Positions 6,835 through 49,600 of a stretch of DNA of 64,000 nt are shown piece after piece. The stretch's first letter is position 1. Each line of letters starts with the position of its first letter. The translations under genes and the position numbers were made by a program. Under the pieces are notes generated by a model that was given only the letters and a program-made list of their open reading frames with translations, was not told the origin of the DNA and made no database searches. The DNA comes from Amoebophrya sp. A120 (taxonomy: Eukaryota > Protista > Dinoflagellata): NCBI GenBank assembly GCA_905178155.1, contig CAJINV010000002.1:2105216-2169215 (forward strand). The letters run 5' to 3'.

Positions 6835-9800
6835 TCATTTTCTCCCCATAATGAGCCCCTCTGCGTGGTTCAGCGCCTCCGCAATATCCGCGTTCACCTC
6901 GTTAGAACTCCGGAAAAATTTCCCCTCCTTCCGCTTCCTCGCCTCGTCCTTCATCTTCAACAGCGGGCTCGGCACCGGCATCTTCCGGAACCGGATCACG
7001 GGTTTTGCCGGACTCTCATCCTTGATCAAGTGCGACCAATCCTTCTCGGCGGAAAACCAGGCGGAAACTTTGGGAAAGATTTTCAAGGATTCCGCGTCGA
7101 TCCTCGCTAAATACAGCGTTTTCTTCAACGTCTCGTTGCTCATCGCTTCCAACCGGTATTTCAAAATTCCCGGATTGTTGTCTCCGGCGAACTCATCGTT
7201 CTGCGAGTTCTCCTTCAGACACTTCTGGATCACCTGCCTTAACTTCGGAAAATCGATTTCGTAGTCGTTCCACTCTTCGAACGCATCGGGGTTCCAGCTC
7301 AACGGTTCTTGGTTCCCGACCTCTTTGTTCATGAACTTCCTCACGATCCGCTTCGCCTCCATGGGCTTCGGGCCTTTGTTTCTCTTCGGTGAGGTGTCAC
7401 TATCGTCATCGGAACTGCTGTGTTTATCCAGTCCCCGGTTGCTCATCATCGCCATGACATCGTCGTGTCCAGGCCGGGCACCAGCACCGCCTCCGATTTT
7501 GAAACCAAACGGCGAATCAGTATTGTTATCCGGCGAACTTCCACCACCATAACCTCCTCCCCGCAGCGGCGATTTAATCCCACTCAAAACGTTCCCGAGT
7601 TTCTGGAAATTCCCCGCGATCGCCCCGCCAATGTGCGCCACCGCGGTGCCGAGACCCGGGGCTTTGCCCGTGCCGTCGTCGCTGCTGCTGTCCGATTCAC
7701 CGTCTAGTTTTTTCTCTTTTGTCCCGTCCGAAAACGGATTCAACGCGTTTACCAACTCCCCCATCGCCTTCCCCATGCTATAACCCGCTCAGATGTAGTT
7801 ACAATCTCAAACGTTACGAATAGAATCTGGAATTTGTGTTGCAAAATGCGCAACATCTGGCCTACTCCCAAAGGAGCGCGCATGACAAGTTTCGGGACTC
7901 CAAACCTCATGAGAAATATCTGACGAAATTTGTATTGCAAAAAGCCCAAGTCTCTATATGGTACTCATGTTGTTCATGCAAGACAAATTCCAGATTCTAT
8001 TGTAACGTTTGAGATTGTAACATCTGAGCAAGCAATACATGTCGGCTTTCTTGTCTAGTTTCTTCTGCTCCATCATCACTTTTTGCTGCTCCTTCTTTTG
8101 CTGGTGAATGGAGCTCCACTTCGCGAACTGCGTTTCGTTATGCATTGCAAACATGTCTGGGTCTGGAAAGTTGGAACTTGTAATGCTGGGCTTACATTCC
8201 TATGAAATCTGTCTCTGTGTTGCAGGACCTACAAAAAGTCTCAAAAACGCTGTTTCTACTCATGCGGGCTGCGCATAAGACAGCGTCCTTCAAACTTGTC
8301 ACACTTGGCTGCATTTGGAAGTGTTTGTCATCATCTACAGTTCAGCATCACAAGTTTATTCCAGATCCAGACATATTTGCAATCCATACTCGTTCCGCTT
8401 GTACACGCTCTTCGCCTTCGAAAGCTTCGCGGCGAGTTTGTCCATCTCCGCGTTATCTCCCCGTAACTGCGCTATCCAGAAAAAAACACCCATCCACATC
8501 CAAGAATTTGTCATGCAAAACATACATAAAGTCCTGTGTTTGTCATGCAAAAAGTGGATGTGAGTGGGTTTTTTTCTGTGGATATGCGCCCGGATCATTT
8601 TCCCCCGGATCTGTGCCTGGATTTGCACCGCCGCCTGGTCTATCAAATGCAAAAATGTCGGGGTCTGGAAACTTGTAATGCTGCGTTGGGAATAGTGAAT
8701 GCTCTGTAATGCACAGGCAAGCATGAGAAATATCTATGTTGCGTTTTTCGCACGACAAAGACAATGACAAACTGCGTTTTTGCATGATAGGCAAAAGGGT
8801 CTCTTCTTGGACACGCATCACAAACTTTTTGGTCATGACAGACAAGCATGACAAGTCTCAAAGTCTTCCAGACCCAAACATTTTTGCATTTGATATGGTC
8901 GATCTTCCGCTTTTTCCGTTGGAGGAACGGCCCGGGATTCTTCGGCAACCCGACCAGTTTCAACTGCAATCGTATGTCTTTCGGGAGCAGGTAGCTGTAA
9001 TCTTTATCCGGACGCAAGATCGACCTCGCAACGTTCGCCCCGAACGGATCTTTACCGTCTTCCCCGACGTCTTCACTGGAGCTTTCGTGTTTGTTGTAGT
9101 CGATCCGGTTGTCTAATCTCTTCCCTTTCACTTTCACCTCGACCTTCGCATTCAACTTCTTCCTCTTCACCTTTGTAAATTGGTGCTTCAGTTCCGTTTT
9201 GCTACCCGCTTCCGGCCACAAACCCAAATCCTCCGCGTCAATCCCTTTTTTGTAGAGATACCGAGCGACAAGATTCGGTTGCTGGTTCTTCTCCTGCAGA
9301 AAAAAATCTGAAGTTCCCTTCATCCCAGTATTCACCCCCGCTTTGAAATCTTGGTTCCGGTTGGTCTTCTCAAAGTCTGATTCCTGGTACACCGTCATTG
9401 TATCCACCCCCAGCATCTTCAAAACCCGAGATAATTTCGCAAAATTTATCTCGTAGTTTACCCACTGGAACCCCTTCTTCCCGTCGATTGCCGGGTCGGG
9501 CAAAGGGACGGTATTCAACTCCTTCTGGACCCCCTTGGGCAAATCCGGCATTCTTCTCCGCAAAAACGGCCCGGGTCGTAGTGTCAGTTCCAGCGCCAAC
9601 ACCGGCTTCTGCAGATTCATCAAGTACGCGTAATTCGCCACCGGCCCGGGCATCTGCGCGCCGACTGCGTAAGCGGCTGATTATCCTGAGTAAAAACGTC
9701 CCCACCTCCCCAGAGTTGTGATGCAAATGTGCAATGACAGGAACATTTGTAATGCGCAGCTCCATGAAAGGTATTTTCAAGCGTGTTTTGGAATTTGTAA

Positions 9801-12800
9801 TGCTGCAAACAGGGCGAGAAAGTGGCTTTCTCATGCGGCTTCCCTTGCCAACCAGCACTACACTGTCACTGCAGAGGGAAACTTGTCATGCACAGCTTCC
9901 AAAACTTCGAGATTTGTGATGGAAGATTCCCAACTTGACTCTGGGGTAGGATGAATGTTTTTGCTCAGGATACTGATGCTTTGTGCTTCTCCGATTTTTC
10001 CGCATCCGCCTTCCGCAAACTCGCGCCCCACCCGTTTTTGAACCAATTCCGATCTTTTTCCTCCTCGATTTGGTCGATCGCGTCGGGGATGAACTTTTTC
10101 ACGTCGTCGTCAGGGAGTAAATGCTCCCCCATCGCGCGCTCGTACGGTGTGGGAAAGATCTATCCTGTGCAAAAGTATCGTACTCGTAGTAATTGCAATC
10201 ATGCATTACAAATCCTTTGCTAAAGGTAAATCCGCATTACAAATTTTTTCTCATGCTGAGAAAATTTGTCATGCATTTATACGAGTACGATACTTTTGCA
10301 GTTCATAAGATCCCCAGGGTCGCAACGTCCACGTTGTTCATGTAGAGCGCGCGGGCTACTTCATCATCGGAGAGTAAGTAAAAATCCAGTTTCTGTTCCT
10401 TCGCGAGTAACTCCATCTCCCGCTGTTCCTCTTCCGCGGTATGTTTCCCAAACTCGTAACCCTCCGCCATCATGGCAGCTTTCGCCCCCGCAGCAAGCGC
10501 TTTCTCTCCCCGCGCGACTCCAATGTTTTCCGCGGATTTCTTTTCCTGTTCCGCGATCTCCTTCATGATCCGCTCCTGCTCCTCTTTTTCGAGTAGTTCA
10601 AGAGATTTTTCGAAAAAATCCCGTAAAGGGGTTAAAAATTTCCCCGGGTCGTCCGGATCCCGTTGTATGACCGGAAACCCCGTTTCCGCATCGATCGCGC
10701 AGTGAATAACCGGACAGCCGGTATTCGGGTCGATGTCCATCAACGGGAAGCCCTTGACGTCCACCGGTAGTAACAACACGCCCCACTTTTTCACGATCTG
10801 CAAATTCGGAAAATTCGGATTTTGCGGATCTACCGGGATTAGCGGCTGTCCTAAGCCGCTTCTCGGGATTTCCAGCTCGCCCGTTTCCATGTTCATCGGC
10901 ATAATCGGTAGTTTCGTAACCGGGTCGTAATTCCGAAACAGTTGCTTCTCATCCCTGGTTATGAATTGCAAATATACCACCTCTGTCTGGAAACTTGTGA
11001 TGCAAGAAAGGGAATAGTGAGCAAACTGTAACGCGCTGCGAAGCATGAGAAGTTTTTCCGTGGTTCTGGGTTCTTGCGTATTCCGCATGAGAAAAAGTGT
11101 TTTTGCATGACAGGCAAGAGGAGGTCTTCGCGGTCACGCAATACAGAGCTCAGAATCTGAATCATGCCGGACTAGCATGACAAATCTCGGAATCATCTCC
11201 CAGACCCAGACATATTTGCAGTTGATACCCGGATTGTACGGCTTCGTAGGGTACCCCTCGTTGTCAAAAGCGAGGATCTATCCTGTGCAAAAGTATCGTA
11301 CTCGTAATGATTGCATTTATGCATTACAAATCTCGTCCATCCCAAGGTAAAACAGCATGACAACTTCCATTTGTCATGCTGAGGTAGATTGTAATGCAAT
11401 TACTACTAGTACGATGCTTTTGCAATTCATAGGATCAGTGGACCTTGGCAGTTCGGATCGGGGTTCACGTATTCCCCCAAAATCCCCCGCGCGTCCACCT
11501 CTCCGTGCGCGTCTTGCTCCTCGGTACCGCCGATAGAAGCTTCTCCTGCTGGACCAGCACCTGCTGATCCTGTCCCCTCCGGTTGTTGGTCTGCAGTCGC
11601 GCCCATCTTAATCTGCATATTCAAGACGTCATCCGATTTCCCTGTGGTTCCACTGCTCTTACCTATCCCTCCCGACTGCCCCGCCTGTTGCGAGCCCCCA
11701 GCACCACTCCCGCCTCCACCTCCCTGTGCCAGCCCCAGCATATCCACCGATGCGCCCGCCTTCGCAATTGGGAGCTTTTTAATCACGGATTGCGGGTCTT
11801 TGTACTTCGGAATCCCCTTCTTCTTCGGCGGCGCTTTCTTCATCTTTGGCGGGATTTTGTGCTTCTTCGCGAATCGCTGATTTTGCGCTGCGGCTTTCTG
11901 CTTCGCGGCCGTCATCGCTGCTTTTTTTGCCTTCGCTTTCGCCATTTTTACCAACTCCTGTTGCTCCAAAACCGCCAAACCATTCTGCACTTCCGCCATG
12001 GCCTGCTCTAGCTGCAGACCCCGTTGGGTCAATTGCTCGCCGAACTGGAGCTGTTCGGGGGAGATGTCGTCCCCCAGCATTTGTAACTCCTGTAAAGCGT
12101 TCACGATCTGCGCGTACTCCTCTTGAATAGCCTGGCCCTGCTGCATCAACTGCTGCATCTGCGGTGTCGGGGTGACTTTCATCGCGTTTTCGTCATCGGA
12201 GTCGAAAAAGAGAAAGGGACTGGAAGGCGGTAGTTTTTTGTCGTCATCTACTTCTCTATGTCTGGCGTTTTCGTTCAGCACTTCGTCGTCCACCTCGTCA
12301 ACTGATTTGTCTACTCGTCTTGCAGATGAAGATGCTGTTATTAATGCTGCTGTAGAAGGGACAGGGGGCGCAGATGCTGGTCCTCGTCGCAAAAGCGGCG
12401 AAGTGGCTGATATGTTGGACGAGCTTGTACTGCAGCTAATGAGAGGACTTACACCTGCGGCAAGTCCTGAAGAACGACCTAATTGTGCTTCGTCTGCTGG
12501 TTGTGGTTCTTGTTCTTCATCCTCAGGAAAGAACATGAAAACTTTCTTCCCAGCACTGCTCACCACTTCCCGCGGCTTTATTTCCTTTTCCAGCTTCTCT
12601 TTCTTCGTGACGCTCCCCTGCTCGTCCGTCCCCGTGTCTATCGGCAAGACAAATTTGATCTTTTTCTCCGCCAGCCCCTCCGAAATCCAGTTCAACTTTG
12701 CTTTAGTTTCCCTTTTCGCCGGCGGCGGGCCAAAACGAACTCGCCTGCTCGGACTGATATCAGCCTGTTCGATTTCGGTCAGAATTTCTGATGCGGACGA

Positions 12801-15800
12801 CTCGGTATCGAAATCGAGTGGATCAGCGACACGAGCAGATTGGACGATGTTCGTCATTTTCGCCTTTGGTTTTGCGCTTGTCGTCGAAACAGTCCAGGCT
12901 GGTCGTATCGCGGCCGGCCGGGTAGAGGTGGACGAAGAAGACCCTCCGTACTGGTACTTTGGCACGGAACCAAGCGCGCCGATAGTTGTAGCTGTAGTTG
13001 CAGATGAAATTGTGGCACCGGGAGGTGCCGCAACCGAAAGTCGCTTCACCTCGGGAATGGTCAAAAGGTGAGGATCCGTGGCTAATACCGCTGTTCTGAC
13101 GGAATAATCCTGGTTCATACTAGTCGACGACGACGAAGGGGCGCTGGAGGAAAAACTGGCTTCGTCTTCACTGCGGATAGAAAAATTATCTTCTCTGTTC
13201 CACTCACCGGAAGAACCGTGCAACACATCATCATCAGCAACTTCTTCTTGAAAACCGTAAAAATTTCCTTCATCTTCTCCCCCGGCGTAGTAGAAAAACG
13301 ACGCGGGTTCCGGGTACCCCATTTTCTTCCCCTTTTTCCCTTTCTTGCCACCTCCACCCGCCTTCCCCTTCCCCTTACCAGCTTGCTGTTTGCCCTTCCC
13401 CTTCTGCGGGCCCCCGGCGCCTTTTCCCTGCGGCCCGCCCTTGGGACCACCAGCTGAACCGGATCCGCCAATGGGTGCGCCCTTCATGTCAACGCCTTCC
13501 AAGCCCTCTTCCCCATCGGTTTTGCTGTCCTTCTTCCCTTCAAAATCCCGCATTAACTCCTTCATCGCATCGTTCTCTCGGTCTCCTAAGCTGTACCCGG
13601 AATCTTCCGAACCAGAATCCGGCTTCAACAAGTTCGGGTCAATTGCATGGTCCTCGTGTCTCGTCGTGCCCATCCCCTCCTCCCCGATTTTCTCCCCAGC
13701 TTGCCCGTGGTACCGCCCACCGCCCGCGGCGTCAATCATCAAGATTTGCTCCTTCTTCTGCGCTTTCCGGATTTCTCTTTGCACTTTCCGCGCGTCCGGG
13801 TCTTGGCGTAACACGATCTTGTCGAACTCCGTCGTTCGTAAAATGTGGATATTCACCATCCGGAGAAACGCCCGCAACTTCGGGTAATCCGGCTCCCAGT
13901 TCTGCCATTTAAACGGAACGTCACCGATGTGCGGGGCGTGGTCCAGGTACAATTTCCGCATCTGATCGGTTATCTCCATTTTCGTGTATGACAATGAAAA
14001 ATGCCCCCACCCCCGAACTTGGGAGCATTTGTATTGCAAGCCTTTCCAAATGAAACATTCGCCCTCTTGCATCTATCAGCATCACAGGTTTCCAATCGTG
14101 AATAGCAAAGATTTGCATTGCAAAAGACCCCAGCAAGAGCGGCGCTTGTCATGCAAGCGATGCGATACACGCCTAGACTCTGCATGATCAGAAAGATTCA
14201 TACTCCTTTCATGCATGACAAAAAGTTTTCATTTGGAAACTTAGCATCACAAATTTTTGCAATTTCAGGGGTGGGGGGCACTTTTCACTGTAATATCGTG
14301 TACTTGATTTTCCCGCTATCTTCCGCCTTCGCTAATATCCCGTGTAATTTCTTCGCCTCCTCTATGGATGTGTCAGGAGGATTGAAATCGACAAAGTTGA
14401 AATAACTTGCAATGCATAAAATGGATGAAAGTTGTAGCCCAGTTTCTAAGTGGCGCATGACAAATCTGGGTAGAACCGAAATCCAGTCTGTCATGCTGTT
14501 TGGGTAAGGAAGACGCCTTTTGTCATGCTACCTTAGCAGCTCAGTTTTTTTCTACCCCTCAACAACAACAGGCTTACAATCTGCCTCACTTGCTTACTCT
14601 GCAAGAGAGGCACTTTGTGGGCTGCATTTTACGCATGAAAAACTATTCCAACTATGACGATTTCAATCCTGACAATCCCATACCCTCACTCGTCCCAGAT
14701 GTTTCCTTGATGAAGTGCTTCAACCGTTTGAAGTTCCGGTACAATCTGTATTGTTTCTGGATATACGACGCTGCTTGCTCCTTCGTGAAGGTAAACCCAG
14801 CTATTTTCCGCACAAACGGGGAGGGTAGCCCCATCTCTGGGAATTTCACCACCGGACCATTATCGGTGAAAACGAAGTTGGTCGGCGGGAAGATCCGCAT
14901 CGTGTCCGGTTGGATATGACAGTTCACAACTGCCTTTCCCCCTCATTTGTATTGCATGAACAGCAATACAAACACCCGCACGTGTGGAGTCTGTGCATGA
15001 CAAGTTCATGCTCGTAATTTAGTACTGTTTGGGCTTCCGGAATCTATCATGCAAACAGCACCACACGGCAGCGCTTGGATTTGGTATTTTGCATGACAAA
15101 AAATGAGGGGGAGGGGGAGTTGTGCACTGTCATATTGGACGCGTTCTTTTATCAACGTGGTTTTTAGAATGTCCGGGTCTTTTTCAAACTGTTTCTTCCA
15201 ATCCTTCACGGTGCCGTACTTGTACAAATCCACACCCTTCCGCTTCAACCTTAATCTGATCAAATCAAACTTCGGTACGTAGTATTCCCAATGCCAATTC
15301 CGCAAGTCGTCATCCGTCGGTTTTTTGATAAAATTTTTCGCGTGGTGGTCCCCGAACTTGTCCTTCGCGATCAATTTCCGGTCGTGCTCTATCGCAAGAA
15401 AAAACTGTTTCGCTGTGAAAGCTGTGATGCATGGAATGGAACACAAAATTATTTGTATTGCTACACGTACACATGCGAGACATTGAATTTTTAAGGGTGT
15501 TTTCCCTTGGGAAGTGCGCATGACAAATTTTCTGTGCCATGTGTAACAAACTTGTGATTTTGCAGATCTTGCAAAACTATCACAGTGAAACATTTTTTTC
15601 GTGCGATATGCTCTTCCAAAAGCTTTAATTTCGCTTTCTGCGCGTTGTTCTCAAATTCCGGGTTCAGTTTCAAAAACTGCTTCCGCCGATCAGAAAGCGC
15701 TAAATGCTTCTTCGTACTGGTCACGCCGGGTGTTGCAGCGTCTTTTCCGTCGTACTCGTAGTGCTCGAGCTCCACATCGGCGTGGATGATGTTGTCGTAG

Positions 15801-18100
15801 GAAGATTTCCGCTGCAAAAACTTCTTCTGCCCCTCCCGGAACTTGTCCATGCGCTCCTTCGCTTTTTCCTTCCGTCGTTTTTCCACCGCGGCGAGGAGTT
15901 TCGGGTTTTTTACGTCTTTGTCGACCAGTTTTTCGTACTTGATCGGATCCTCTAAAAACATCTTCGCACGTTTCTCCCACTTTGCCTCCTCTTCCGCCTG
16001 CTTTATTAGCGCTTTCTCCCGGTACTGCCGTTCCTCCTCTTCCTGCTTGTGAATCTCGGCGGCCTCCTGGCCCTCGGCTGCGATATGGCGTTCTCAACAA
16101 TTACATTCTCAATTGTTACATGAATTTGTGATGCAAGAATGGCAAAAGTCAAAGGGGTGACCTTGCGCGTCTTGCATGACAGATTTGGCGCGGATTCTCA
16201 GCCTGTTTGGCTCTTCGGGAATTTGTCATGCGAAGCAGCTTGATCATGTCAATTCTGATTGCAAATTTGCATGACAAATCATGTAACAGTTGAGAATGTA
16301 ACATTTGCGAACGCCATATGCGAGGGCAGCAACGTCTACAGCCTCCGCGTGCATCATCTCAGCAAGGGACTGCTGCTTTTTCTGATACCTTCGGGATTTT
16401 GAAAATTGAAGTTGTTGCTGAGAAGCCGTCATGCAGGAATCATCTTGCAAAACTGTTTTAGCAATGACAGTATCATGCACGACAAACACAAACCACGCCA
16501 TCAAACATGAGCAAGATGAGGATTACGCTGCCGCCGCTCTCCCCCGCATTTCCCTTTTCTTCTCCGCCTTCCGTTGAAAGCGCCTTCTCGTCTTCGCAAT
16601 CTCGCTCTGGTCCGGATCGGTGCCGGAGCTCGGTGGGGTGTGTTCTCCCTCCACCGCGACGAGTTGTTTGTACTCATATTGAATCTGCTTGATGTCCAGA
16701 TCGGGGAATTCTTCTTTGAAAACCTGATCCCCCGCAAGCGACCCGCCGCCATCGTCCGTCCCCTCGTGCTCGGACTCAGTTTTTTCCCCCGCCAGTTGTT
16801 CTAAATCCACCCCGTCCGTCGGATCCAATTCCTGGATCTGCCGGGAGATCGGGTCGATGGTCAGCGCCATCTGCTTCACCATTTCTGCCAGCTTCCTCTA
16901 TGCATTGCAAATAGTTCTGAGCCTGGAAGTAGAGTGCAAGTTTGTGTTGCTCTGGTGCTAGCATGACTCTCAAATCTGGCATGATGCACGGTACCCAGAA
17001 GCACCAATGTTCTGCCACGCATAAATCCAGTCTGTCATGCTGAATAGACAACACCGGGCAAGAACTCAGAAACTTGTCATGCTAAGCCGTCATTTGATGC
17101 GGCGTCTTCATGATTCGCCGGTCAGCATCACAAATTCTTTCCAGACCCAGACATATTTGCAGCTGATATCTTCCCTTGCTCGTTCATTTGGTTGATATCC
17201 TGTGCAAAAGTATCGTCCTCGTATTGCAATCATGCATTACAAATCTTTTCGCTAAGGTAAATCAGCATTACAAATTGCATTTCTCATGCTGAGGAAATTT
17301 GTAATGCATTTATACGAGTACGATGCTTTTCCGCTGCATAGTTGATCGCCTCTATCAACTGATGGTTTTGGTTTCCAAAAGCCCCCTATGAGCGTGCACA
17401 ACTCTCCCTCCCCCTCATTTGAAGTGCAAATACAGCAATACACGCGTCGGCAAGCCAAAGTCAAGACTGCAGGGAGTTTTGCATGACAAAATCACACGAG
17501 ATTGCAATTCTTTTTGTGCTGCCAGAATCTGTCATGCACACAGGGCCAAGTTGAAGCGAAGATTGGAATTCATATTTTGCATGACAAATGAGGGGGAGGG
17601 GAAGTAGTTCTTGTGCACTCTCATACCCCCTGCCGCTCCTTCTCGTGTTCCATCTCGCGGATGTGGTGGCGAATTTGATTCAATTCCTGCATCATGGCGT
17701 TTTCCTGGTTCTGCATCTCAAACCGCTGGTGCCGCAACATGTTCAAGTGGTGCTGTTTCTCCGCGTCCTTGTGGTCTTTCTCCAGCCTCTCCTGCATTTC
17801 GTGAAATTTCTTCTGGATCTTGATGTGAAACGGCGGCTCCCGGTTGTCCGGATCGAAATTGTACGGCTCGCCCTTGAACTTCGTGGAGAGCAGTTCGTGC
17901 ATCTGGGGGACGTTGAGCCCCTGCTTGTACATCTCCTCAAACACGTCCTCCAACGTGATACACCGCTCGTACGGGTCGTGGATTTTTGGCTCTGCATGGA
18001 CGAGTCCTCGCTGCGGAGACAGCACACGGGCTCTCGCTTTCCCCTTCGCGGCTTTGGCTCCTGCCCCTTTCGGGGCCTTCGGTTTTGCTTTCGGCGGCAT
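6835..18100 (-). CDS. Giant 18-exon gene, about 2451-aa hypothetical protein with an IQ calmodulin-binding motif and a repeated W-x-x-Y-E-x-D-F-x-K-L-R domain
   Basis: Starts MPPKAKPKAPKG at 18100. Removing 16 introners (+5 nt each) and one GT-AG intron leaves 7356 nt (2452 codons), with every junction read in frame. IQ motif AAVQIQAQIRGKMIRAQL at about 8470-8635. Confidence 0.85.
7779..8037. mobile_element. Introner (family E-related TIR)
   Basis: About 55-bp imperfect TIR (GCTCAGATG..GTTACAATCTCAAACGTTAC..AATAGAATCTGGAATTTGT); flanks CATGC/CATGT; join KADM|GKAM. Confidence 0.9.
8139..8388. mobile_element. Introner, family A
   Basis: TATGCATTGCAAACATGTCTGGGTCTGGAA / TTCCAGATCCAGACATATTTGCAATCCATA; flanks TTCGT/CTCGT; in frame. 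Confidence 0.9.
8473..8584. mobile_element. Short introner (112 bp)
   Basis: TATCCAGAAAAAAACACCCATCCACATCCA / TGGATGTGAGTGGG(T-run)CTGTGGATA; perfect TSD TGCGC; in frame. Confidence 0.9.
8641..8895. mobile_element. Introner, family A (opposite orientation to 211-462)
   Basis: TATCAAATGCAAAAATGTCGGGGTCTGGAA / TTCCAGACCCAAACATTTTTGCATTTGATA; perfect TSD TGGTC. Confidence 0.95.
9682..9972. mobile_element. Introner, family C
   Basis: TATCCTGAGTAAAAACGTCCCCAC.. / ..GTTTTTGCTCAGGATA; perfect TSD CTGAT; in frame. Confidence 0.95.
10161..10307. mobile_element. Introner, family B
   Basis: TATCCTGTGCAAAAGTATCGTACTCGTA / TACGAGTACGATACTTTTGCAGTTCATA; perfect TSD AGATC. Confidence 0.95.
10960..11227. 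mobile_element. Introner, family A, degenerate left TIR and TSD
   Basis: TATGAATTGCAAATAT.. / ..CATATTTGCAGTTGATA; flanks CTGGT/CCCGG; the +5 rule gives the in-frame join YNPG|DEKQ. Confidence 0.85.
11279..11431. mobile_element. Introner, family B
   Basis: Family B TIRs; perfect TSD GGATC; join GPLI|LAFDNE. Confidence 0.95.
13987..14295. mobile_element. Introner, family F
   Basis: TATGACAATGAAAAATGCCCCCACCCCCGAA / TTCAGGGGTGGGGGGCACTTTTCACTGTAATA; perfect TSD TCGTG. Confidence 0.95.
14363..14682. mobile_element. Introner, family D
   Basis: TATGGATGTGTCAGGAGGATTGAAATCG / CGATTTCAATCCTGACAATCCCATA; flanks TCCTC/CCCTC; in frame. Confidence 0.9.
14915..15134. mobile_element. Introner, family G
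   Basis: TATGACAGTTCACAACTGCCTTTCCCCTCATTT / AAATGAGGGGGAGGGGGAGTTGTGCACTGTCATA; perfect TSD TTGGA. Confidence 0.95.
15390..15608. mobile_element. Introner, family H
   Basis: TATCGCAAGAAAAAACTGTTTCGCTGTGA / TCACAGTGAAACATTTTTTTCGTGCGATA; perfect TSD TGCTC. Confidence 0.95.
16084..16318. mobile_element. Introner, family E
   Basis: TATGGCGTTCTCAA..TTACATTCTCAATTGTTACATGA / TCATGTAACAGTTGAGAATGTAACATTTGCGAACGCCATA; perfect TSD TGCGA. Confidence 0.95.
16389..16526 (-). other. Canonical GT-AG intron (138 nt) with introner-motif remnants
   Basis: Minus strand GC|GTAATC...CGAAG|G gives the in-frame join RAAAA-YQKK. No TIR, but it contains GTCATGC and ATCATGC. Confidence 0.65.
16899..17168. mobile_element. 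Introner, family A
   Basis: TATGCATTGCAAATA.. / TTCCAGACCCAGACATATTTGCAGCTGATA; flanks TCCTC/TCTTC; in frame. Confidence 0.9.
17196..17340. mobile_element. Introner, family B
   Basis: Family B TIRs; perfect TSD GTTGA; only 27 nt of exon separates it from 16899-17168. Confidence 0.95.
17387..17625. mobile_element. Introner, family G
   Basis: TATGAGCGTGCACAACTCTCCCTCCCCCTCATTTG / CAAATGAGGGGGAGGGG..TTGTGCACTCTCATA; TSD CCCCC; join ERQG|AFGN. Confidence 0.95.
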
Positions 18101-31887: not shown

Positions 31888-32563
31888 GCACTTTCCCAGA
31901 AGGGATCCACCCTACTCCCACTTAGGGTCCTGTTGACTAACAAACTCCAAAAACCCGCGCGAAAGGGTCTACGCCCTGGACCGGATGAAACAGATGCCCG
32001 CAAGGCAGAAAACCCGGACACGGCCGCTAGCCGACACTGAAAACCCCAGAGGGGAAACGCATAGACACCAAGATAGACACGCACCACGATGGACTCTAAG
32101 ACCAAAATCCCGCGCAAGATATAACGCAGCGAAAGCGCCGATACACCACCCCCTCGTGGCGAGCCGCAAAATGTAGAAAGGATACCTCCGGGGAACAGAA
32201 AGCACTCGAACCCCCCACATTCCAGCAGCAAGCAATAGGCAATTCCCCAGAAGGGATCCACCCAACTCCCACGTAGTGTCCTCTTGATAAACTTCAAAAA
32301 CCCGCGCGAAAGGTTCTGCGCCCTGGACCTGATGAAACAACTGCCCGCAAGGCACAAAATTCGAACACGGCCCCTAGCCGACACGGAAAACCACTGAGGG
32401 GAAGCCCATCGATACCAAGATAGACACAAATGGTGATACACTCTAAGACCAAAATCCCGCAAAAGGAGCATTGTATAGAAAGCGCCGATCCGCCGCCCCC
32501 TGGTGGCGAGCCGCAAAACGTAGAAGGGATTGATACCTCCGGGGAAAAGAAAGCACTCGACCC
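31888..32563. repeat. Two-copy tandem repeat, about 350-bp period
   Basis: CCCAGAAGGGATCCACCC..AAAACCCGCGCGAAAGG..GATACCTCCGGGGAA.AGAAAGCACTCGA occurs from about 31888 and about 32239. Confidence 0.9.
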
Positions 32564-36998: not shown

Positions 36999-37279
36999 CT
37001 TCCCCGCTGGGAAGCGCCCTCAGTGGCGGAATGGCACTGCGGTGCACTCTGAGCACATGAGCTGCCATCCATTAAAGCGAAAACTTCCTAAATCACCCTT
37101 CCCCGCTGGGAAACGCCCTCAGTGGCGGAATGGCACTGCGGTGCACTCTGAGCACATGAGCTACCATCCATTAGAACGCAACCTTCCTAAATCACCCTTC
37201 CCCGCTGGGAAGCGCCCTCAATGGCGGAATGGCACTGCGGTGCACTCTGAGCACATGAGCTACCATTCATTAGAACGCG
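36999..37279. repeat. Three-copy tandem repeat, 99-bp period
   Basis: CTTCCCCGCTGGGAA.CGCCCTCA.TGGCGGAATGGCACTGCGGTGCACTCTGAGCACATGAGCT starts at 36999, 37098 and 37197. Confidence 0.95.
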
Positions 37280-37688
37280 AGAACGATGTGAATCCATCAC
37301 AAAGCAAACTATCCAGCGAGACCTGCGGACTACGTCCGCGCTGGCTCCTTCCCCGACCCCACTCAGAGGGGTGGAAGACCAACAACTCCAGGCATTAGCT
37401 TCTAGGGATCTGCCAGCCCATATACAAAAACGGACGGGGGGAAACTCCCTCCAGTCACTCCACGAAAAGGCTCTACCAGGGTAGATGTGTCATTAATTTA
37501 TACGAAACAAACTTATTCCTTCGCTCTTGAATTGTCTTGTTGAAACTAAAATTGAAATTTGTCATGCTGCAAAGCAGATTCGCATCAAATCACGGGGGCA
37601 AGTTTGAATTTGTAAGTGCTACTTCATCTGTACATTAAAAGTATTGCAAAGTACTGCAACTGCTACTCTACTACCATAAAAAAATCGG

Positions 37689-40600
37689 CTACTCGCAGCA
37701 CCCCCCTTGATCAACTGGCTTCGGCTTCGGGCGCGGTTTGGGGGAGGCCACCGGCTGAGGTTGCGCAGCCGGGTTTGCTGGTTGAGCTTGTTGGGCGGGT
37801 GTGGTCTGTAGCACGATTTTTGTAGTCGTGGGCGGGTAGTTGTACGCAGCAGCCTGCAGCTGTGGCTGCGTCGTCGAAGGTTGTCTGTAGTACACGCCGG
37901 TTCCAGGTGGACGAGATGGCTGCTGCTGTAGTGGCATGGGCTGCAGCTGTGAAGATCCGGGTGGAACAGGAGCTCCTACTCCGGCGGGGTGCGAACCCAA
38001 ACTACCACCTCCTGCTTGTCGTGGTCCTACTCCGCCCGGGTACGGGTTGTACGGAGATGAAACTCGTCCTTGAGGTTGGAGTTGTTGTCCTATTGCAGCT
38101 CGTCCCGGTTGCGAATAAACGCCTGAGACTCGGCGCTGTGGCGGAGCGCCTGCGGCTGGTCTTCCACTTGCCGCGCCAGGACGCGAAGATCATATCCAGT
38201 GCAAACATGTCCTCTAGTGCGGTCCGCGTTTTGCTTTTGGTTTCGTATGAAGTAGTTCTTTGCAGTCAGCAACCGCATTCTGTTTCTGTTCTGAGCGGCG
38301 ATTCTACTTACTCATACAAGGATTTGAATTTCTTATGATTGAAGGCAAAACGAATTTCCAGACACAGACACGTTTCCAATGCATATGACGATACGCGTCG
38401 CGTGGTGCCCCTCCACTTTTTCCTTTTCCTCCATTTCCTTTCTGTGCTGGTGGTGCTACTCGATGGCCACTGGGACGAGGTGCAGGTGGTGGTCCTACAA
38501 CACGTTGCGGATCGGAAAGATGTTGATGTGGTACTTGGACACCAGGTGCTAACTGGTAGTCGTCGAGACCGAGACCGGGAGCAGGTTCTCCTGCTACAGC
38601 TCCTCCAGCAGTTTGAGCACCTTCTTGCAGAACGACAGGTCCTACTCCTAGTCGAGGTGGTTGCTGACCGATAATACCGTGATCTTCTTGGTCAACATGA
38701 ACATCTCCTGCTCCAGCAGGGAGCCGCGGCCCAAGAGCCGCCCCAAGCGAAGATCCTAGGCGTCCCTGTTGCTGTTCTTCTTTTCGCGCGTCGAGAATAT
38801 TATTATCGACGTAAGGTCGTAATCCTGGTTCCTCTTGTTCCCGAGGATCTTGCTGGACAACGGGGGCTGCTGGTCGTGCTCCTCCTTCCGGAAGTTGAGG
38901 AACTCCGCCAGCGGCTAGGCTACTTTCAGGCTGCTTTCCTCGGTCGAGGTCGCTGGTGCTGCTTCCTTTGCGACCGGGAACAGCGGCAACCCCAAATATG
39001 AAAGCGAAAAACGCACGCACTGATATCTTCCCTGGTTCTTCTACTTGTCATTGTTGCCTGTCACTATTCGTTCGTGTATGTTTCGTGTTTGGTGTGGTCC
39101 TTGCGTCAGCACGATGTGGGGCGCTGCAGAAACTACGAGCGTATTGCTATATCCGTGTCCTAGTAGTCCGCGTGATGTTCGTCCAGCTACACTACGGCAA
39201 GTAGTTGCCGTGGCATCACGAAAATCAAACATCGATATCTTACCACCATAAGTAACAACTGCAACTGAATCATAAGAATGCAGCTACGTGACTTGTCAAC
39301 CTCACCAGGTGCTTTTTACCAATATCTCAACGTCAACAACAACACTGCGATGCAGAAAAGAAAGAGGCCATAGAAGATTTCCTCAAGATTGTTGCCGCAC
39401 TTTTCGTTTTCATAATATGGGCTGCTGCGACCTTGCCGACCGCGGCCCGAAATGGTGCCGGCCGATGATGCTGATCCGGACCTGACCCTTGCACCGAGGC
39501 CGCCGCGGCCAAATCATCATCCCTGCGCCCCGTCTGAACTGGTCCCGTACTGCCCTCAGCAGGGCCAGAATCCGCCGCAGCGACACTACCTGCTGCTAAG
39601 GGACGCTCCTGGTGCTGTGCAGGACCTACCATCGGTTTGGGAGGTCGTGTAGATATTTGCGGAGGATGAAGACCGGCTTCTGCTCCTCCCGCGCCCCCAC
39701 CTTGCGGAGGGAGGAGCTGAAGACCCGCTTCTGCTCCTCCCGCGCCCCCACCTGGCGCATCGGTGCGGACACGGGCAGGAGCGAGGGCGGATGGATCTTG
39801 GTGAAGATGTTGATCCAGCGATTGCGCCGGTAGAAAATCGGCTGGCGCTTGCGGAAGCATGTCGGGCTCGGGGGGTCCTGGTCTACTGGTCACAGCAGCT
39901 GCGCCCCCGGCCGTTGCGGTGGAGGAGACACCAGGCGGGGCACCTCCGGCTGGCTCCAAGATACTGCCGGCGACGCTGCTGCCCCCACCTGCAGCAGCAC
40001 CACCAGCAGCTCCGGGCTCAAGAGGGGCGTCAAAACTGTCACTGGTGACGGCGGCCGGCGGCGCGGGGGATGTTGACGCAGAACTCGTGGTCGGGATGGT
40101 CTGGGACTGGGTCCCGGCCGCTGCTAGAGCTGCTGCTGGTTCGCCTGCGGGCCCACCAGAACTTCCTCCAGCCCCGTTCACGTCCTCCGCCTGGAGGCTC
40201 GGGAGCCGCTGCTCGTCGGCGCCCGGGGGGTCAGCGTTCTTGCGAGCTGGGAGTGGCGCAGGGTCGCTAGTCTTCAGCGCGGTGCAGTCCTGCTTTTCCA
40301 ACCAATTAATCGCGTTGTTGAACTTGGGCTTGTCGGGTCTCTCCAGCTGCAGCTGTGCCAGTTCCACCCGCAACCAAAACCCACCCTCCTTTTTCTCCGT
40401 TAGTTCCCGTGCTGCACTGTGTAAGGGAGGCTTGGCTTCAGGATTGGGCCGCTTGTCTCTTTCAGCGGCCCACTCTCGTTCAATTTCGGCCGGATCCCCT
40501 AACGCGAGTGCGGACTTTTCAATCGCGGCAATGTGGATGCGTATATGTGACTGCATTTTCTCTTTTAAACCATTATTTGTTTCCAGGTGATACCGGCTTT

Positions 40601-43600: not shown

Positions 43601-46600
43601 TGCTGCATACGAAGCCTTCCGCTGAACATGGAGGGGGGATTTTTTGATCTAATATTTTCGGACAAAGTTTCGTATTCGGCGGGAGTCATCATAAGTTTGC
43701 CTTCCCTTTCCTCCTTCCTGTCGGCTTTGGCTCCCCATTTCGTGTAGTCCCACCAATAGTTTCCTTTCCCGTTCCGCTGCTGCGGCTTCCCCATTCATGC
43801 ATTGCAAAAGCATCGCACTAGTAAGTCTTCCATGAGTCTGCACATGACATACACATAGCTAAACCTACCCAAAATGAAAATAAAAGGAAGGAGTGTCGTT
43901 TGAAGAAGCTGAAGCGGTAGCCACTTTAATCCTGGCAAACTGGCGCTAGAGCGGATTTAGTCCCTGGGAACCACAACAGCTGGACTCTGTGCCGGTGCCC
44001 ATAGGTGGGTCCCGATCGAACACCTCTTTTACAGGTCACACAGAGCCGCAACTGCTGACTTCCTCTTCCGCTTAGCTACACGAGTAGACGTTCCTGGGCT
44101 GCTAGATGCGGCAGGTCTGCTTCACCATCCAATCCCGCAAGCCAGGTAGAGTTCCGGTGTGGCTTTGATGGGTTTAAGGCAACAAGCTCGGTAAGCCTAT
44201 AAACCTTTCAGAGCGTCGTATAAATATGCCTTTTTTATTGTGCCACGTTCGAAGTTCTTCGTGGCGAATCTTCAGGTATCAAAAATGTTCTGAGAGAACA
44301 AGACTTTGTATACGGTATTGCAACTCCAGCAACCTGCGTGTAATACTACTACGATACTTTTACACAGCATATCGTCTTGTCTTTGGGTATTGACAAATGT
44401 GCACCCCCCACATCGGGATAGAGCCTCTCGTCATGGAGCATGGCAAGGTTCCATATCAGATCCCAGCCAAAATTCCAATGTAGCGGTTCATCGCTCCACA
44501 ACGGCACCCACTCTCCAGTGTTCTCATCAACGTCCGGAGCATCGTGTGCACGTGGGACACGTCGAACCTGTCCCGATTTTAGCGTCCCTGCGTTTCGAAG
44601 GGTCTTCGGAAGAGTTTTCGTCAGAAGCTCTACTGCGTCGCTCGCGCATGAATAATCGTCTCTGAGCTTGATGTGGCCCTCAAGCTCTTTGACGAGGTCC
44701 TCCAGAACTGATTTTTTTGCTTCAACCCGCGAGTGCGTGTCTTCAGGATCAGGCTCTCCAGGCTCTACACGAAATCCGGGCAAGACTTGCCGCAAGTCAT
44801 GCCCGGCTGCATTGAGAAAAACCCACCCCAGCACCTTATCGCGTTCTCAAGCGTTACATTCTCAAGTGTTACATGGATTTGTAATGCTAAACCGACCGTC
44901 GAAACCACAAACGCACCCATAGGGCATCTTTCCGCAGATGGTCAGGCCACCGGGTCGCGGAGTCAAAATGCAAGAATAGCACAGGTGAGAGGGAGAACCT
45001 TGCGCGTCTTGCATTACAGATTTGGCGCGGATTCTAGTGCTATTTAGTGAGTCCTCCAAAATTTGTCATGCGAAGTAGCTTGATCTTCACCGTGGCGATG
45101 TTCATGTAGTTGTTCCTTCTCCTTGGTTGTTGTTGATAGTGCTTTTGCGTGACAAATCATGTAAACAGTTGAGAACGTAACTTTTGAGAACCCCATACAC
45201 CTTGAAGACTTCTTGCGGCTCCACCAGGTCGTCAACAAGAAATTTTTCGACCTTCGGATTATTCGGATCCGAGGAAGTGAGCCCCGCCATCTCAATCATT
45301 CTCTCAGCGAGAAGGCTCTTCCCGGTACCCGTGTTGCCGAAGGTGATGAAGAGCTTTGGTTTATTGTCGATGCTATTGACATTGTTTACGGCCAGTTGTA
45401 CAAGCAGCTTCTGGTTCTCCTCGTTGGCGTATGGATCTGGAACCCATGACTCCTCTCCGGCCTCCGATATTTTGGTTTCCGATACTCCCCGCCAATCCTC
45501 CTCCGGTGTCCCAATCTGCTGATACTGCATGACCGGAGTCATTTTTTTCCTTTTCATTTTAGGCTCCGTCACCAGTGGCCGCCTGTCTGGTCCTATTGTT
45601 GCGAGGGGTTCTTTCTTTAACTCCGGCGTCGGAAGGAGACAGCCTTCAGCAGCCAACTTTCGAAGCTCTTGCCGGTCCTTCTCGTCCACAACCTCACCTA
45701 CCGGATCTATCACAGAAAAAAAGCGTGGTAGTTTCATCGCGCTGATTCATACATCTGCTGTACTGCTGCACGACCAGTTGTAGCAAAGTAATTTACAGGA
45801 CAACTTTTCGTCCATTTCGTTTGAAATATTCAATTTTGATCTTATTATGCAGCAAGAAGTAACGATGGATATATCTATATTTTCGAAGCATGCCCTTGCC
45901 CCCTTTGCTCTTGCTCTTCTGTCTACTCTGTGCGGCTGCGTCATGACACGTTTCTTTCATGCCGTGAAGGTCCGGACTAGATTCCTGCAGCTGGTGCTTC
46001 GGTTTCTGTCGAAAGAATTCTACGCGATTAACAAAATGCTAATCCTCTGTGATAGGGTTCACTATTGCGTCGTACACGTCTTTTGGTAACGTAGCCCGCC
46101 AGTACGTAGTCGTCTCTTGTTGTAGATCTTTATTGACAATTACCGGAGGAAGTTGTGCGTATTCAGCCCAGGGTTGAGGCGGCGCTACTTTGTCGTCAAG
46201 TGACCTGCTCTGCTTCAGAAGATGCGCTTCCTTCTGCACCAAGGACGCGACGGCCGTTTGGTCCCCGACGCCGACCTGCTCCTCCCCCTCTACTACTCCA
46301 GGCAACAGCCCTGATTCCTGAGACGCACGACCAGGAGGCACCACGCCTCCACTAGCGTCCTCCCGATATCAAATGTAAAAATGTCTGGGTCTGGAAGAAT
46401 CATGCTGCTTTTGCATGACACAGAAGGTATGGCATGGAAGCTCTAGCATCACAGGTTTCGAGAAGCGTTCGCAATGCCGGATCCGCATGACAAATCCCTG
46501 ATTTTGGTGACAGAAAGTGGGCAACTTTTGTTGCCTATGCATGAGAGATTTTTCTGTGTTCTGAAATGCGCATCACAAGTTTCAACCTTCCAGACCCAGA

Positions 46601-49600
46601 CATTTTTGCAAGTGATACCCGAAGTAGAGGAACAACATCGCCACTACCTTCGCTATGGGGCTCTCAAACGTTACACTCTCAACTGTTACATGCTTTGTCA
46701 TGCAAAATGACCATGACCCGCCACACGACCAAGCTGCTTCGCATGATAAATTCTCGGAGGGCTAAATAGCACTGTAATCCGCACCAATAAACCTGTAATG
46801 CAAGACGCGCAAGGTTCTCCCTCTCGCCTGTGCTAATCTTGCATTACAAATTCATGTAACAGTTGAGAAGGTAACCGATTTGAGAACGCCATATTCGCGT
46901 CGCCCTTCTTGTGCAGGAGGAGCAATCGACGCCACGGGCGCGATATGCAAGAAAAAAAGTATGTGAGTGTAAGTCTGTGATGCAGAAAGTCCAAAACTGT
47001 TACACTTGTCATGCTGGGTCTGCGTCATAGGTTACTTTCACAGGTGTTTTCACGTACTGGCTGCGCATGACAGGTTTTCCCTGCAATGCAAAGCGAATTT
47101 GTGATGCTATTTTCCCTACAGAGTTACACTTACACAGTTTTTTTCCTGGATACGCGACCGTAGTGACCTTCGTACCCGCAGCAGCGGCACCACCCACGAC
47201 CTCTTCGAGAAGTGCAACAGCCGCCGAAGTTGTTGCACTAGAAGTGCTGGCGCCTAGATCTTCTTGTATCCTGTGGAAAAACATCCCCAGCACCCCAGAG
47301 CCGTCGTGCAGTTTTTTTTTGGAACGGTTTGGAATTTTTGCATCTACAGGAACACTTGTTGCAATGCCGGTCCTCATGAGGAGCATTTTTGGAAGTCGTG
47401 TTTTGGCATTTGCAATGCTGTAAGCAGGTGGCTTCTTGCTTGTTCTTTGGATCTCCTTGCTAAACTTCACTAGCATACAGAGAGAATAAACTTGTCATGC
47501 GTAGTTACTCTGAAAACCCCTTTTGGATGTATCTATAAGGCAAAATTCCCATCTTGACTCTAGGGTGTCGTGGGCCTCGTAGATTTACGCAGCATATCTT
47601 GACGCGGAGCATGATCTTCCACCGCATGATCTTGTGCAGCGGGAGGCGCTTCTGCAGCAGTGGTAGCACCCGTCGCTGCGAGACCTTCTCCGTCGCCGCC
47701 CTGTTCGGCTTCGGCAGCACCAGTACTAGTAGCACTTCTTTTATCCTGCTCTTCCGCGAAGGAAGCGGCGGTCATCTCGGTGGGAAAGCTCTCCGCCGCG
47801 CTGCCTTCACGACGATCTCCCGGGACCGCTCCATCCACCAGGTCGTTGTGGTTGTTTTTTTCATCTACTTGAAGATCCGCTTTTTCTCCTGCTTGATGCC
47901 CATGCTTCATTGTCATCGGGAGGGGAAGCTTGATGTAGTTTAAGTTCTTGTTTTCATCTTCTACTTTATCGTTGTTCGACATGGCAGCAGGCGATGTTGT
48001 TCTAGTTGTAGTACTACCCAGTTGCGCCGGATCTTTTTGTTCTTCAACCACACCAGAAACGACTTCCGCGGGCTGTTGCTCAACCGAGCCTCGTTCTCCT
48101 CCTGGGCCCATATTGGTGCTGTTCTTGTCTACTGGTCCCCCTGAAGATCCACTCAACATGAGCTCGCCGCCAAAATTCGCAACCTGGTCCTTTTCCGGGA
48201 GCACAACTCCGGGTAGTTGCACGAACGCAGCGGAAGCAGCTCCTGCTCCACCACCGCTCGCAGCGGTACAACCCTCGGACAGCTGCTGGTGCCCCTCGCC
48301 TTCGGGGCACGGCTGCTTCAGTGCCCTCTGCTCGGTGTTCCCGGCGGGGCTCGGGTCGTGCTGCTGCCCAGAGTTGTGCGCGGACCCTTGTTCCGAGCCG
48401 CGGCTGCGAAGGTCATCTAGTTGTGCGAGCGATTGCGAGGCAGTTTTCTTTTCGTTGGGCGAAGGCGCAGGAAGAACAACCTTCTGCTGTCCACGAACTG
48501 GTTCTTCATCTTCGTCCACAGCAGTTTTGACATTGTCTTTCTCCGGCGCTGCTGGTGCTGGCACTGAATTCAAGAAACTCTCCGCATAATTTTCCGCCAC
48601 TTCATCTTCTCCATAATTTTTGCTCCTTCGCCGTGCGGAGGTAGTTCCTTCGCTACTTCCACTTGCTGCACCTCCTCCCACCTCTGAAGCAGGAGGAGCA
48701 ACAGCAACCTTATCTCCGCTTTTTCGTAACGCTGCAGCTGCCTCACTGTTCATTTGATCACCGCGACCGGATGAGGAAAACTTAGCCAACTCACCGACAG
48801 GAGCACTGCCCTGTTGTTCTACTGGATCTACTTCTCTGGGCCGTCGCGCTCCTTGGGGTCCGGAAGAGACCTGCGCTGTTGACGTTGCGGGAGCAGGAGC
48901 GTCGTCGAGCAGCTCACTGTCGCCTTCCGCAGCCGTCTCCGTGGCCGCGGCCCCTGCTCCAGCGGCCGGGGGCTGCACAGGTCGTGGATCATCATGAAGT
49001 GGCAGATCGTGACTATTTTCCACTGTGGACGTCACCGTGGGTGTAGTTGATGTACTAGCTGCATCTTCTGGATGAAGAAGGTGGCTTGATGTTCCTGTTC
49101 CAAAATTTGGATTTCCATTTCGTTGTTTCAAGTTCTCACCCTGTTGATTTTCAAGAAAAGCTTCAACAGCGTCTTCCTTTCCAGCCGAAGGAGGTGCTGT
49201 AGTTGTACGTGCGTCCTCAGAACCGCCCGCAGCGAGAGTAGCTTCTTCTGCACTGGCGCTACGACCTACTTTGGGAGTAGTGGATGCAGAAGTCGTGGTT
49301 TCTGCCATGCTGACGGCTTGATCGTGCAGCTGCGTCGTCGTGCCACTTCGGCTTGCAGTCTTCACAACTACGGCCGCAGGAGAGAGAGCCGGCGGATCTA
49401 CCACCTCCGGTCGACTTTCTTGTGCGGTTTTTGAAGGCAGTACAACTTCTGGCCCCTGCTGGTGCTGGTTCTGCGCAGGAGGGTTTGTCGCAGTAGTATC
49501 GTCCACTGTTTTCTCCTGCAAAAATTGAAATGCGGTACTAGAAGAAGAAGGTGTTGTTGTCAACGCCTCCTCTTCTTGCTGCACCTGTGAAGCAGGAGGC

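What the first reader, a model, noticed from the sequence alone, without database searches (positions are those of the whole stretch)
8641..46893. Introners are removed in either orientation
Seen: family E copies at 16084 and 44837 carry CCTTGCGCGTCTTGCA on the plus strand, whereas the copy at 46654 carries its reverse complement. Family A copies at 211 and 8641 are likewise inverted relative to each other. All sit in minus-strand genes and all are removed in frame by the same rule. Established: spliceosomal signals are strand-polar. Inference: recognition is symmetric (a TIR hairpin or double-stranded DNA), which argues against standard U1/U2 definition.
Basis: partly seen in the sequence, partly recalled or inferred. 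Interest (0 to 1): 0.8.

Follow-up and report, generated by a model that had tools for sequence, protein, structure and literature searches.

The report
Mobile introns spliced facing either way
Small transposon copies interrupt genes of what is likely the marine parasite Amoebophrya facing either way, lack normal GT-AG splice signals, and copies facing both ways are missing from the same likely-RNA contig; the elements are published, and their mirror-image ends likely carry all the cutting signals, which narrows how this organism's unexplained introns could be spliced.

Summary
Observation confirmed. Family E copies 16084 and 44837 are inverted against 46654, and family A copy 211 against 8641. 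All lie in minus-strand reading frames that open only when the element plus one 5-bp target duplication is removed. One likely-RNA contig lacks 8139 and 8641, family A copies facing opposite ways. Among 202 coding-context copies (29 here, 173 from related contigs) the five large families occur both ways (A 19:20, C 8:7, D+G 51:62), and only 10 of 202 could be cut GT/GC-AG. The elements match the published Amoebophrya A120 introners. The inference needs trimming: terminal inverted repeats give the transcript the same two ends either way, so symmetry excludes GT-AG/U1 definition but not a spliceosome. The cut falls inside the odd-length duplication, so it is lopsided, and the DNA run keeps the elements. 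No G-U wobble or folding bias for an RNA hairpin was found. Either-orientation introners are known (Polarella, Aureococcus) but use splice-site dinucleotides. This scan reported the same pattern on other pieces of this genome. Family E's 16084/44837 orientation has reading-frame support only.

The parts
211..462 (.). Family A introner, orientation 1; duplication has a mismatch at transcript position 1
   Evidence: no bridging contig among rows shown
8139..8388 (.). Family A introner, orientation 1; absent from transcript-like contigs; mRNA keeps duplication position 5 from the downstream copy
   Evidence: (X1 record 3, X2 record 10)
8641..8895 (.). Family A introner, orientation 2; absent from the same contigs as 8139
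10960..11227 (.). Family A introner, orientation 2; duplication copies differ at 3 of 5 positions, yet +5 removal restores frame
16899..17168 (.). Family A introner, orientation 1
46367..46617 (.). Family A introner, orientation 2
59120..59409 (.). Degenerate family A copy, probably orientation 1; left end uncertain by 1 nt
   Evidence: left out of the family counts
16084..16318 (.). Family E introner, orientation 1
   Evidence: frame evidence only
44837..45197 (.). Family E introner, orientation 1, with two internal insertions
   Evidence: frame evidence only
46654..46893 (.). Family E introner, orientation 2
   Evidence: frame evidence only
7779..8037 (.). Diverged family E relative, orientation 2; direct junction 7773 to 8038 (264 = element + 5); mRNA keeps duplication position 1 from the upstream copy
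   Evidence: (X2 record 10)
8473..8584 (.). Short introner, absent from transcript-like contigs
9682..9972 (.). Family B introner, absent from contig X1 record 3 (other B copies: 23727-24161, 47267-47596)
63607..63885 (.). Family B introner in non-coding sequence (likely a 3' UTR of a minus-strand gene beyond the window); skipped as 284 nt = element + 5
   Evidence: 4 of 4 runs, one sample; no coding signal
10161..10307 (.). Family D introner, absent from contig X1 record 3 (other D copies: 673-1913, 11279-11431, 17196-17340, 24390-24539)
4144..4449 (.). Family C introner (other C copies: 14363-14682, 26223-26531, 29369-29674)
14915..15134 (.). Family F introner (17387-17625 same orientation; 56271-56561 weakly opposite)
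15390..15608 (.). Family G introner (46944-47152 same orientation; 57647-57914 related). 13987-14295 is a further introner not assigned to a family here
6838..16522 (-). Host ORF, 2194 codons after removal of 13 introners, among them A and E copies in both orientations; longest ORF without removal 881 codons
   Evidence: 3' part 6433-10696 spanned by one contig
44352..45746 (-). Host ORF of 44837, 343 codons after removal
46042..50685 (-). Host ORF of 46367, 46654, 46944 and 47267, 1198 codons after removal
3..2549 (-). Host ORF of 211 and 673, 348 codons after removal

Best explanation
These are short DNA-transposon copies with TAT...ATA inverted ends and a 5-bp target duplication that sit in genes in either orientation and are absent, together with 5 flanking bases, from likely-RNA contigs; they are likely spliced from pre-mRNA by a relaxed spliceosome that would read signals carried in the inverted ends. 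Shown: random orientation relative to the predicted host strand, loss of element + 5 nt in both orientations of family A, no GT-AG option, near-identical end composition on the transcript whichever way the element faces, and a cut inside the duplication. Inferred: because the ends are inverted repeats, the transcript always starts the element with UAU(C/G)nnnUGCAAA-like sequence and ends it with the reverse complement, so a polar machine needs no interior signal. The long stem likely brings the two ends together, and the cuts are likely measured from the ends rather than found by matching the duplicated bases. That the catalyst is the U2/U5/U6 spliceosome without U1 is inferred from the published parts list and was not tested.
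For: Both orientations: A 19:20, C 8:7, D+G 51:62, B 9:4, E+F 6:4 among 202 coding-context copies, no inconsistent orientation edge; strand caller right for 31 of 32 window elements in leave-one-gene-out. X1 record 3 gaps of 226 and 182 letters equal genomic length minus elements + 5 exactly. 63607 is skipped as element + 5 in non-coding sequence. +5 is the best frame in 137 of 153 confident cases, 6 of 6 where the duplication has 2 or more mismatches. Mismatched duplications: X2 record 10 keeps position 1 from upstream (7779) and position 5 from downstream (8139); codon scores agree in 10 of 10 position-1 and 8 of 11 position-5 cases, from both orientation classes. Arm position 4 is C or G in 194 and 197 of 202 copies but pairs in only 81, so ends are conserved as sequence, not only as pairs. 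A120 has U2, U4, U5, U6 and nearly all spliceosomal proteins, U1 not detected (PMC7789003 section 10). Fritillaria splices 95% non-GT/AG introns with a modified spliceosome (PMC13326754 abstract).
Against: No lariat, branch point or snRNA pairing was tested; no strand-biased branch-like motif (58 against 61 of 202). No significant RNA-pairing signal: G-U against A-C 158:127, p 0.08; sense minus antisense folding energy -0.47 +/- 0.54 kcal/mol; wobble-making against A-C-making substitutions 113:112. The end conservation is also what transposase binding would leave. The exact cut offset is bounded (after duplication base 1 to 4) but not fixed here (positions 2-4: 12 up, 10 down), and the edge pattern also fits a join by microhomology. 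RNA evidence is assembled contigs of one sample whose RNA status is the tool's guess.
Confidence: 0.5

Rival explanations
1. A spliceosome-independent pathway reads the terminal RNA stem, cuts at fixed distances from it and ligates the exons, as proposed for euglenid nonconventional introns.
For: Both orientations fold into strong end-to-end stems (z -8.2, -6.2); arm positions 11-13 pair in 193-198 of 202 copies; no conserved splice dinucleotides at any offset. Euglenid TIR introns leave as circles, not lariats (PMC11282704 passages).
Against: Arm positions 4, 6 and 7 pair in only 81, 93 and 51 of 202 copies; no G-U excess or sense-strand folding advantage; no enzyme identified.
Confidence: 0.27
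2. A protein that binds the inverted repeats in double-stranded DNA (a tamed transposase-type binder) marks both ends in chromatin and hands the nascent RNA to the splicing machine.
For: Ends are conserved as sequence at unpaired positions and are nearly symmetric between 5' and 3'; RNA-pairing tests were null; a TGTnATGC motif recurs about equally on both strands.
Against: No such protein was looked for. A weak polarity exists: a perfect family D arm lies at the transcript 5' end in 49 copies and at the 3' end in 22 (p 0.002), though other families do not reach significance.
Confidence: 0.1
3. The elements are excised from DNA in expressing cells, like ciliate internal eliminated sequences, by symmetric recognition of the inverted repeats.
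For: TA-starting inverted ends, precise loss with one duplication copy, no strand preference.
Against: DNA run X5 has contigs running from unique flank into elements at unique-sequence depth (21-30, against 27-35 in element-free bins), one spanning 16899-17168 whole; no empty-site joint among the 15 shown of 1448. Contigs drop rare variants, so a stage-limited excision is not formally excluded.
Confidence: 0.04
4. The junctions are reverse-transcriptase template switches across a hairpin flanked by short repeats, not in-vivo splicing.
For: Hairpin plus direct repeat is the classic substrate for this artefact (recalled); the kept bases at mismatched duplication edges fit a homology join.
Against: 30 of 32 elements have stops in all three sense frames and one gene needs 13 removals; exon sequence is coding-like across junctions; +5 holds where the duplication is decayed; six successive elements are absent from one contig.
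Confidence: 0.04
5. Each orientation recruits its own canonical or near-canonical splice sites, as in Polarella and Aureococcus introners.
For: Published precedent (10.1101/2020.10.14.339549 passages). In the window the base before TAT was a purine in 24 of 32.
Against: Only 10 of 202 copies allow GT/GC..AG at any offset; first dinucleotides at the best offset are AT 71, GT 62, CT 40, TT 29; the purine bias falls to 0.64 against 0.57 background in 173 outside copies.
Confidence: 0.03

Closest known systems
Introner elements (IEs) / non-canonical introns of Amoebophrya sp. A120 (Farhat et al. 2021, PMC7789003; seen: abstract passage, sections 10, 11, 12, 16, passages found by word search, four supplement passages)
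   Same: Inverted repeats starting TAT and ending in a run of A, 3-5 nt direct repeats (5 bp in Fig. S19 legend), about 240 nt, repeated families, no splice dinucleotides, co-oriented gene blocks.
   Different: The parts read do not address element orientation relative to the host gene; 'orientation' occurs 4 times in the main text (those shown concern gene order) and 3 times in the one supplement held (the two passages shown likewise). The paper reports variable repeat lengths and positions, where a single 5-bp duplication and element + 5 removal fit here.
Polarella glacialis introner-like elements, classes 2, 3, 6, 7, 8, 10, and Aureococcus anophagefferens introners (Roy et al., bioRxiv 10.1101/2020.10.14.339549; seen: four passages)
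   Same: [quoted passage not shown]
   Different: They use GT/GC/GA and AG sites from the element or duplication, and classes 6, 8 and 10 are biased to one orientation; here no dinucleotide is required and large families are close to 50:50.
Euglenid nonconventional introns (review PMC11282704; seen: passages)
   Same: Non-canonical borders, terminal inverted repeats that bring the ends together, duplication-like repeats, likely MITE origin, unknown mechanism.
   Different: Different lineage and consensus (CAG/CTG at +4..6 and -8..-6); excised as circles. The excised product is unknown here.
Fritillaria borealis non-canonical introns (PMC13326754, abstract and section list only; PMC11282704 passages)
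   Same: MITE-like origin, mass escape from GT-AG, handled by a retuned spliceosome.
   Different: Fritillaria keeps U1 and preferred ends (AG-AC, AG-AT); here no preferred ends and U1 not detected.

Membership tests
Amoebophrya A120 introner elements | Terminal inverted repeats starting TAT with a downstream A run | tested here: met
   TAT(C/G)nnnTGCAAA-like arms in most families (the TA start was a detection criterion)
Amoebophrya A120 introner elements | Short direct repeat at the borders | tested here: met
   exact repeat in 17 of 59 strong arm pairs at length 5, 0-1 at other lengths in the same register; 372 of 392 with at most one mismatch
Amoebophrya A120 introner elements | Repeated families | tested here: met
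Amoebophrya A120 introner elements | Removed from transcripts without GT-AG | tested here: met
   (7 of 32 window elements; contigs of one likely-RNA sample)
Amoebophrya A120 introner elements | Window belongs to the A120 genome | not testable with these tools
   no genome held; inferred from element grammar and from other scan notes
Canonical U2-type spliceosomal intron | GT/GC...AG ends | tested here: not met
   10 of 202 at any offset
Canonical U2-type spliceosomal intron | Strand-specific branch motif near the 3' end | tested here: not met
   58 sense against 61 antisense of 202
Spliceosomal substrate (relaxed) | Lariat intermediate, U2/U6 dependence | not testable with these tools
   needs lariat sequencing or inhibition
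Euglenid nonconventional introns | End-to-end stem in the RNA | tested here: met
   predicted folds
Euglenid nonconventional introns | CAG/CTG consensus at +4..6 and -8..-6 | tested here: not met
   arm consensus differs
Euglenid nonconventional introns | Excised as full-length circles | not testable with these tools
   contigs only
Ciliate IES-like DNA elimination | Element absent from the expressed DNA | tested here: inconclusive
   DNA contigs keep the elements at unique depth; rare or stage-limited empty sites cannot be seen

The most novel reading that the evidence does not exclude
Amoebophrya has a second intron-definition system in which a factor derived from transposon end recognition reads the TAT...ATA arms, in DNA or in the RNA stem, and sets two ruler cuts without U1 or any splice dinucleotide, so that every new insertion of any of these families, in either direction and even in UTRs, is a perfect intron from the start.
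Probability: 0.3. Interest if true: 0.85.

Novelty: new variant of a known kind. Interest (0 to 1): 0.45.

Why it matters
How A25/A120 remove more than 60% of their introns without GT-AG and apparently without U1 is stated as open in PMC7789003. Orientation independence places the signals in the arms and rules out interior polar signals. Together with the element + 5 rule it explains why these transposons can spread through exons at little cost, and it gives direct tests: arm swaps, inversions, duplication-mismatch reporters and lariat mapping. The elements themselves are published, either-orientation introners are known elsewhere, and this scan has noted the pattern on other pieces of this genome, so the gain is a sharper rule rather than a new system.

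Tried and rejected
No whole genome was held, so the wide test used 142 loci (405 kb) from one set of metagenome-collection contigs, found with one family D arm; the scan covered 36 of 64 parts of that collection. The best matches of window elements to those copies were 76-93% identical; the loci were selected by D, and no RNA was laid on them. Apparent one-way orientation of B, C and D in the window (4 of 4 each) did not hold outside (5:4, 4:7, 40:58). Purine bias before TAT (24 of 32) largely faded. G-U wobble excess and sense-strand folding advantage: not significant. Better conservation of the 5' arm: significant overall but carried by pattern-selected D copies; non-D p 0.09, non-selected D p 0.73; orientation is not clustered on the D tree (40 changes against 39.0). 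Kept as a hint only. Raw-read run X8 gave 88 reads, at 211-242, from another family A copy, no exon cover. The DNA run flooded the joint table (15 of 1448 rows shown). One search showed no contig cover over the exons at 44-60 kb; this is no evidence on expression. 146 of 349 elements lacked a confident host strand and were left out of the main counts; 673 and 59120 were left out; two duplicated sites were found and dropped only. Literature searches for either-orientation splicing in Amoebophrya listed nothing that states it; subscription papers (Huff 2016, Roy 2023, Henriet 2019) were not read and figures of PMC7789003 were not visible.
Full report
Observation. With arms trimmed, 46654 is inverted against 16084 and 44837, and 8641 against 211 (alignments). 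I curated 32 elements in the window. They start TAT or TAC, end ATA or GTA, and are flanked by a 5-bp direct repeat: of 59 strong arm pairs, 17 have an exact repeat at length 5 and at most 1 at lengths 3, 4, 6, 7 or 8 in the same register. Family A splits into 211, 8139, 16899 (and probably 59120) against 8641, 10960, 46367. Family E splits into 16084, 44837 against 46654 and the diverged 7779.

Reading frames. Removing each element plus 5 nt gives minus-strand ORFs of 2194 codons (13 elements, both orientations of A and E), 1198, 348 and 343 codons. For 8 of 8 elements tested, +5 gave the longest ORF, and 30 of 32 elements carry stops in all three sense frames.

Transcript evidence. Runs X1-X4 are contigs of one sample that the tool guesses to be RNA; X1 and X2 have almost no depth at 2441-3050 where DNA run X5 is covered. 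X1 record 3 spans 6433-10696, and its unaligned gaps of 226 and 182 letters equal the genomic lengths minus six elements + 5 each. It therefore lacks 8139 and 8641, family A copies facing opposite ways in one gene. X2 record 10 joins 7773 to 8038 directly and gives the same arithmetic for the next three elements. 63607, which has no coding signal around it, is skipped as 284 nt in 4 of 4 runs. No bridging contig appears for 211, 16084, 44837 or 46654 in the rows shown, so family E has transcript support in one orientation only. X5 contigs run from unique flanks into elements at unique-sequence depth, so the DNA keeps them.

Wider test. A scan with a family D arm returned 142 loci holding 319 distinct elements; 80 shuffled loci gave none. 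A codon model called the host strand correctly for 31 of 32 window elements, and 228 of 243 confident calls agreed within loci. Of 349 elements, 202 had a confident coding context. Orientation relative to the host was A 19:20, C 8:7, D+G 51:62, B 9:4, E+F 6:4, and 0:3 and 1:2 in two small families. The one-way pattern of B, C and D inside the window did not hold outside it. Removal of element + 5 was the best frame in 137 of 153 confident cases, including 6 of 6 with a decayed duplication.

What the ends look like to the transcript. Only 10 of 202 copies could be cut GT/GC..AG at any offset, and no offset gives a preferred dinucleotide beyond the element's own TA. Base frequencies of the 5' arm and the complemented 3' arm are nearly the same at positions 1-24. 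A branch-like motif in the last 60 nt is as common antisense as sense. But the symmetry is built into the inverted repeats: a polar machine reading one motif at the 5' end and its complement at the 3' end would be blind to orientation.

The cut is lopsided. At 7779 the contig keeps duplication position 1 from the upstream copy, and at 8139 position 5 from the downstream copy. Codon scores at 43 single-mismatch duplications agree: upstream better in 10 of 10 at position 1, downstream better in 8 of 11 at position 5 (6 of 6 non-synonymous), undecided at positions 2-4. The cut lies after base 1 to 4 of five, so it cannot be equidistant from the arms. Other scan notes propose one base before and four after the element; my data allow this but do not fix it. 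The same edge pattern would arise from a homology join, which is why template switching and DNA repair stay as minor rivals.

Hairpin or sequence. Both orientations fold into long end-to-end stems. Yet arm positions 4, 6 and 7 pair in under half of the copies while position 4 stays C or G, G-U pairs do not significantly exceed A-C mismatches (158:127, p 0.08), and the sense strand does not fold better than the antisense. One hint of polarity remains: a perfect D arm is at the transcript 5' end in 49 copies and at the 3' end in 22. Other families show the same sign without significance, so I do not build on it.

Mechanism. Insertion: a cut-and-paste or integrase-like transposase makes a 5-bp duplication without regard to gene direction (inferred). 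Removal: at RNA level, by a machine that finds the arms and cuts at set distances, deleting the element and five bases and restoring the original mRNA (outcome shown, recognition inferred). I favour a relaxed spliceosome (0.5), since A120 keeps U2, U4, U5, U6 and most proteins while U1 was not detected (PMC7789003 section 10) and Fritillaria shows such retuning (PMC13326754 abstract). A separate hairpin endonuclease-ligase (0.27) and a DNA-bound end-marking factor (0.1) are not excluded.

Novelty. The elements match the A120 introners of PMC7789003 (sections 10-12, 16; supplement passages). Either-orientation introners are described in Polarella and Aureococcus, but with splice dinucleotides, and with orientation bias in classes 6, 8 and 10 (10.1101/2020.10.14.339549); PMC9860276 allows for opposite-orientation insertion in its method; the passages of PMC12130899 that I saw did not address it for Amoebophrya. 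My searches listed no paper stating unbiased, dinucleotide-free, two-way removal in Amoebophrya. This scan has reported it several times on other pieces of the same genome; those notes are unchecked and are not independent support. Verdict: real, a new variant property of a known kind, interest 0.45.

Noticed in passing
window 673-1913: A family D introner holds a nested insert of about 1.06 kb bounded by 300-nt direct repeats (722-1021 and 1484-1783, 99% identical), like a small LTR-type element; removal of the whole 1241 nt + 5 still restores the host frame.
   Followed up: partly
window 2548-3598: A 1051-nt element with 47-nt inverted arms (I10), TAC...TTA ends and a decayed 5-bp repeat; removing it + 5 joins ORFs 3486-5920 and 3-2549 into 1016 codons, and X1/X2 depth is near zero at 2441-3050. 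The exons on both sides share a repeat of about 70 nt. Likely a large atypical introner.
   Followed up: partly
window 10955-11232: The two duplication copies of element 10960 match better shifted by one base, but only removal of element + 5 restores the frame, suggesting cuts are measured from the arms.
   Followed up: partly
window 63607-63885: An introner in non-coding, probably 3' UTR sequence is removed by the same rule, so removal does not depend on reading frame.
   Followed up: yes
window 8585-8640: The 56-nt exon between elements 8473 and 8641 encodes an IQ-like calmodulin-binding motif (motif recalled, not scanned); a second IQ-like stretch lies near 14740-14790.
   Followed up: no
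window 16369-16525: What looks like an ordinary GT-AG intron on the minus strand lies beside the introners in the same gene region (read).
   Followed up: no
window 31500-37400: An A+C-rich 6-kb stretch with 242-nt direct repeats (31942, 32289) and three 99-nt tandem copies (36999-37295), resembling a decayed retroelement.
   Followed up: no
window 27360-29959, 44352-45746, 59400-59900: Related minus-strand genes share an FGNTGTGKS P-loop-like motif (third copy read), a local gene family with different introner insertions.
   Followed up: no
window 57969-58259 and 38193-38385: Further degenerate element-like stretches with arms but no clear 5-bp repeat.
   Followed up: no
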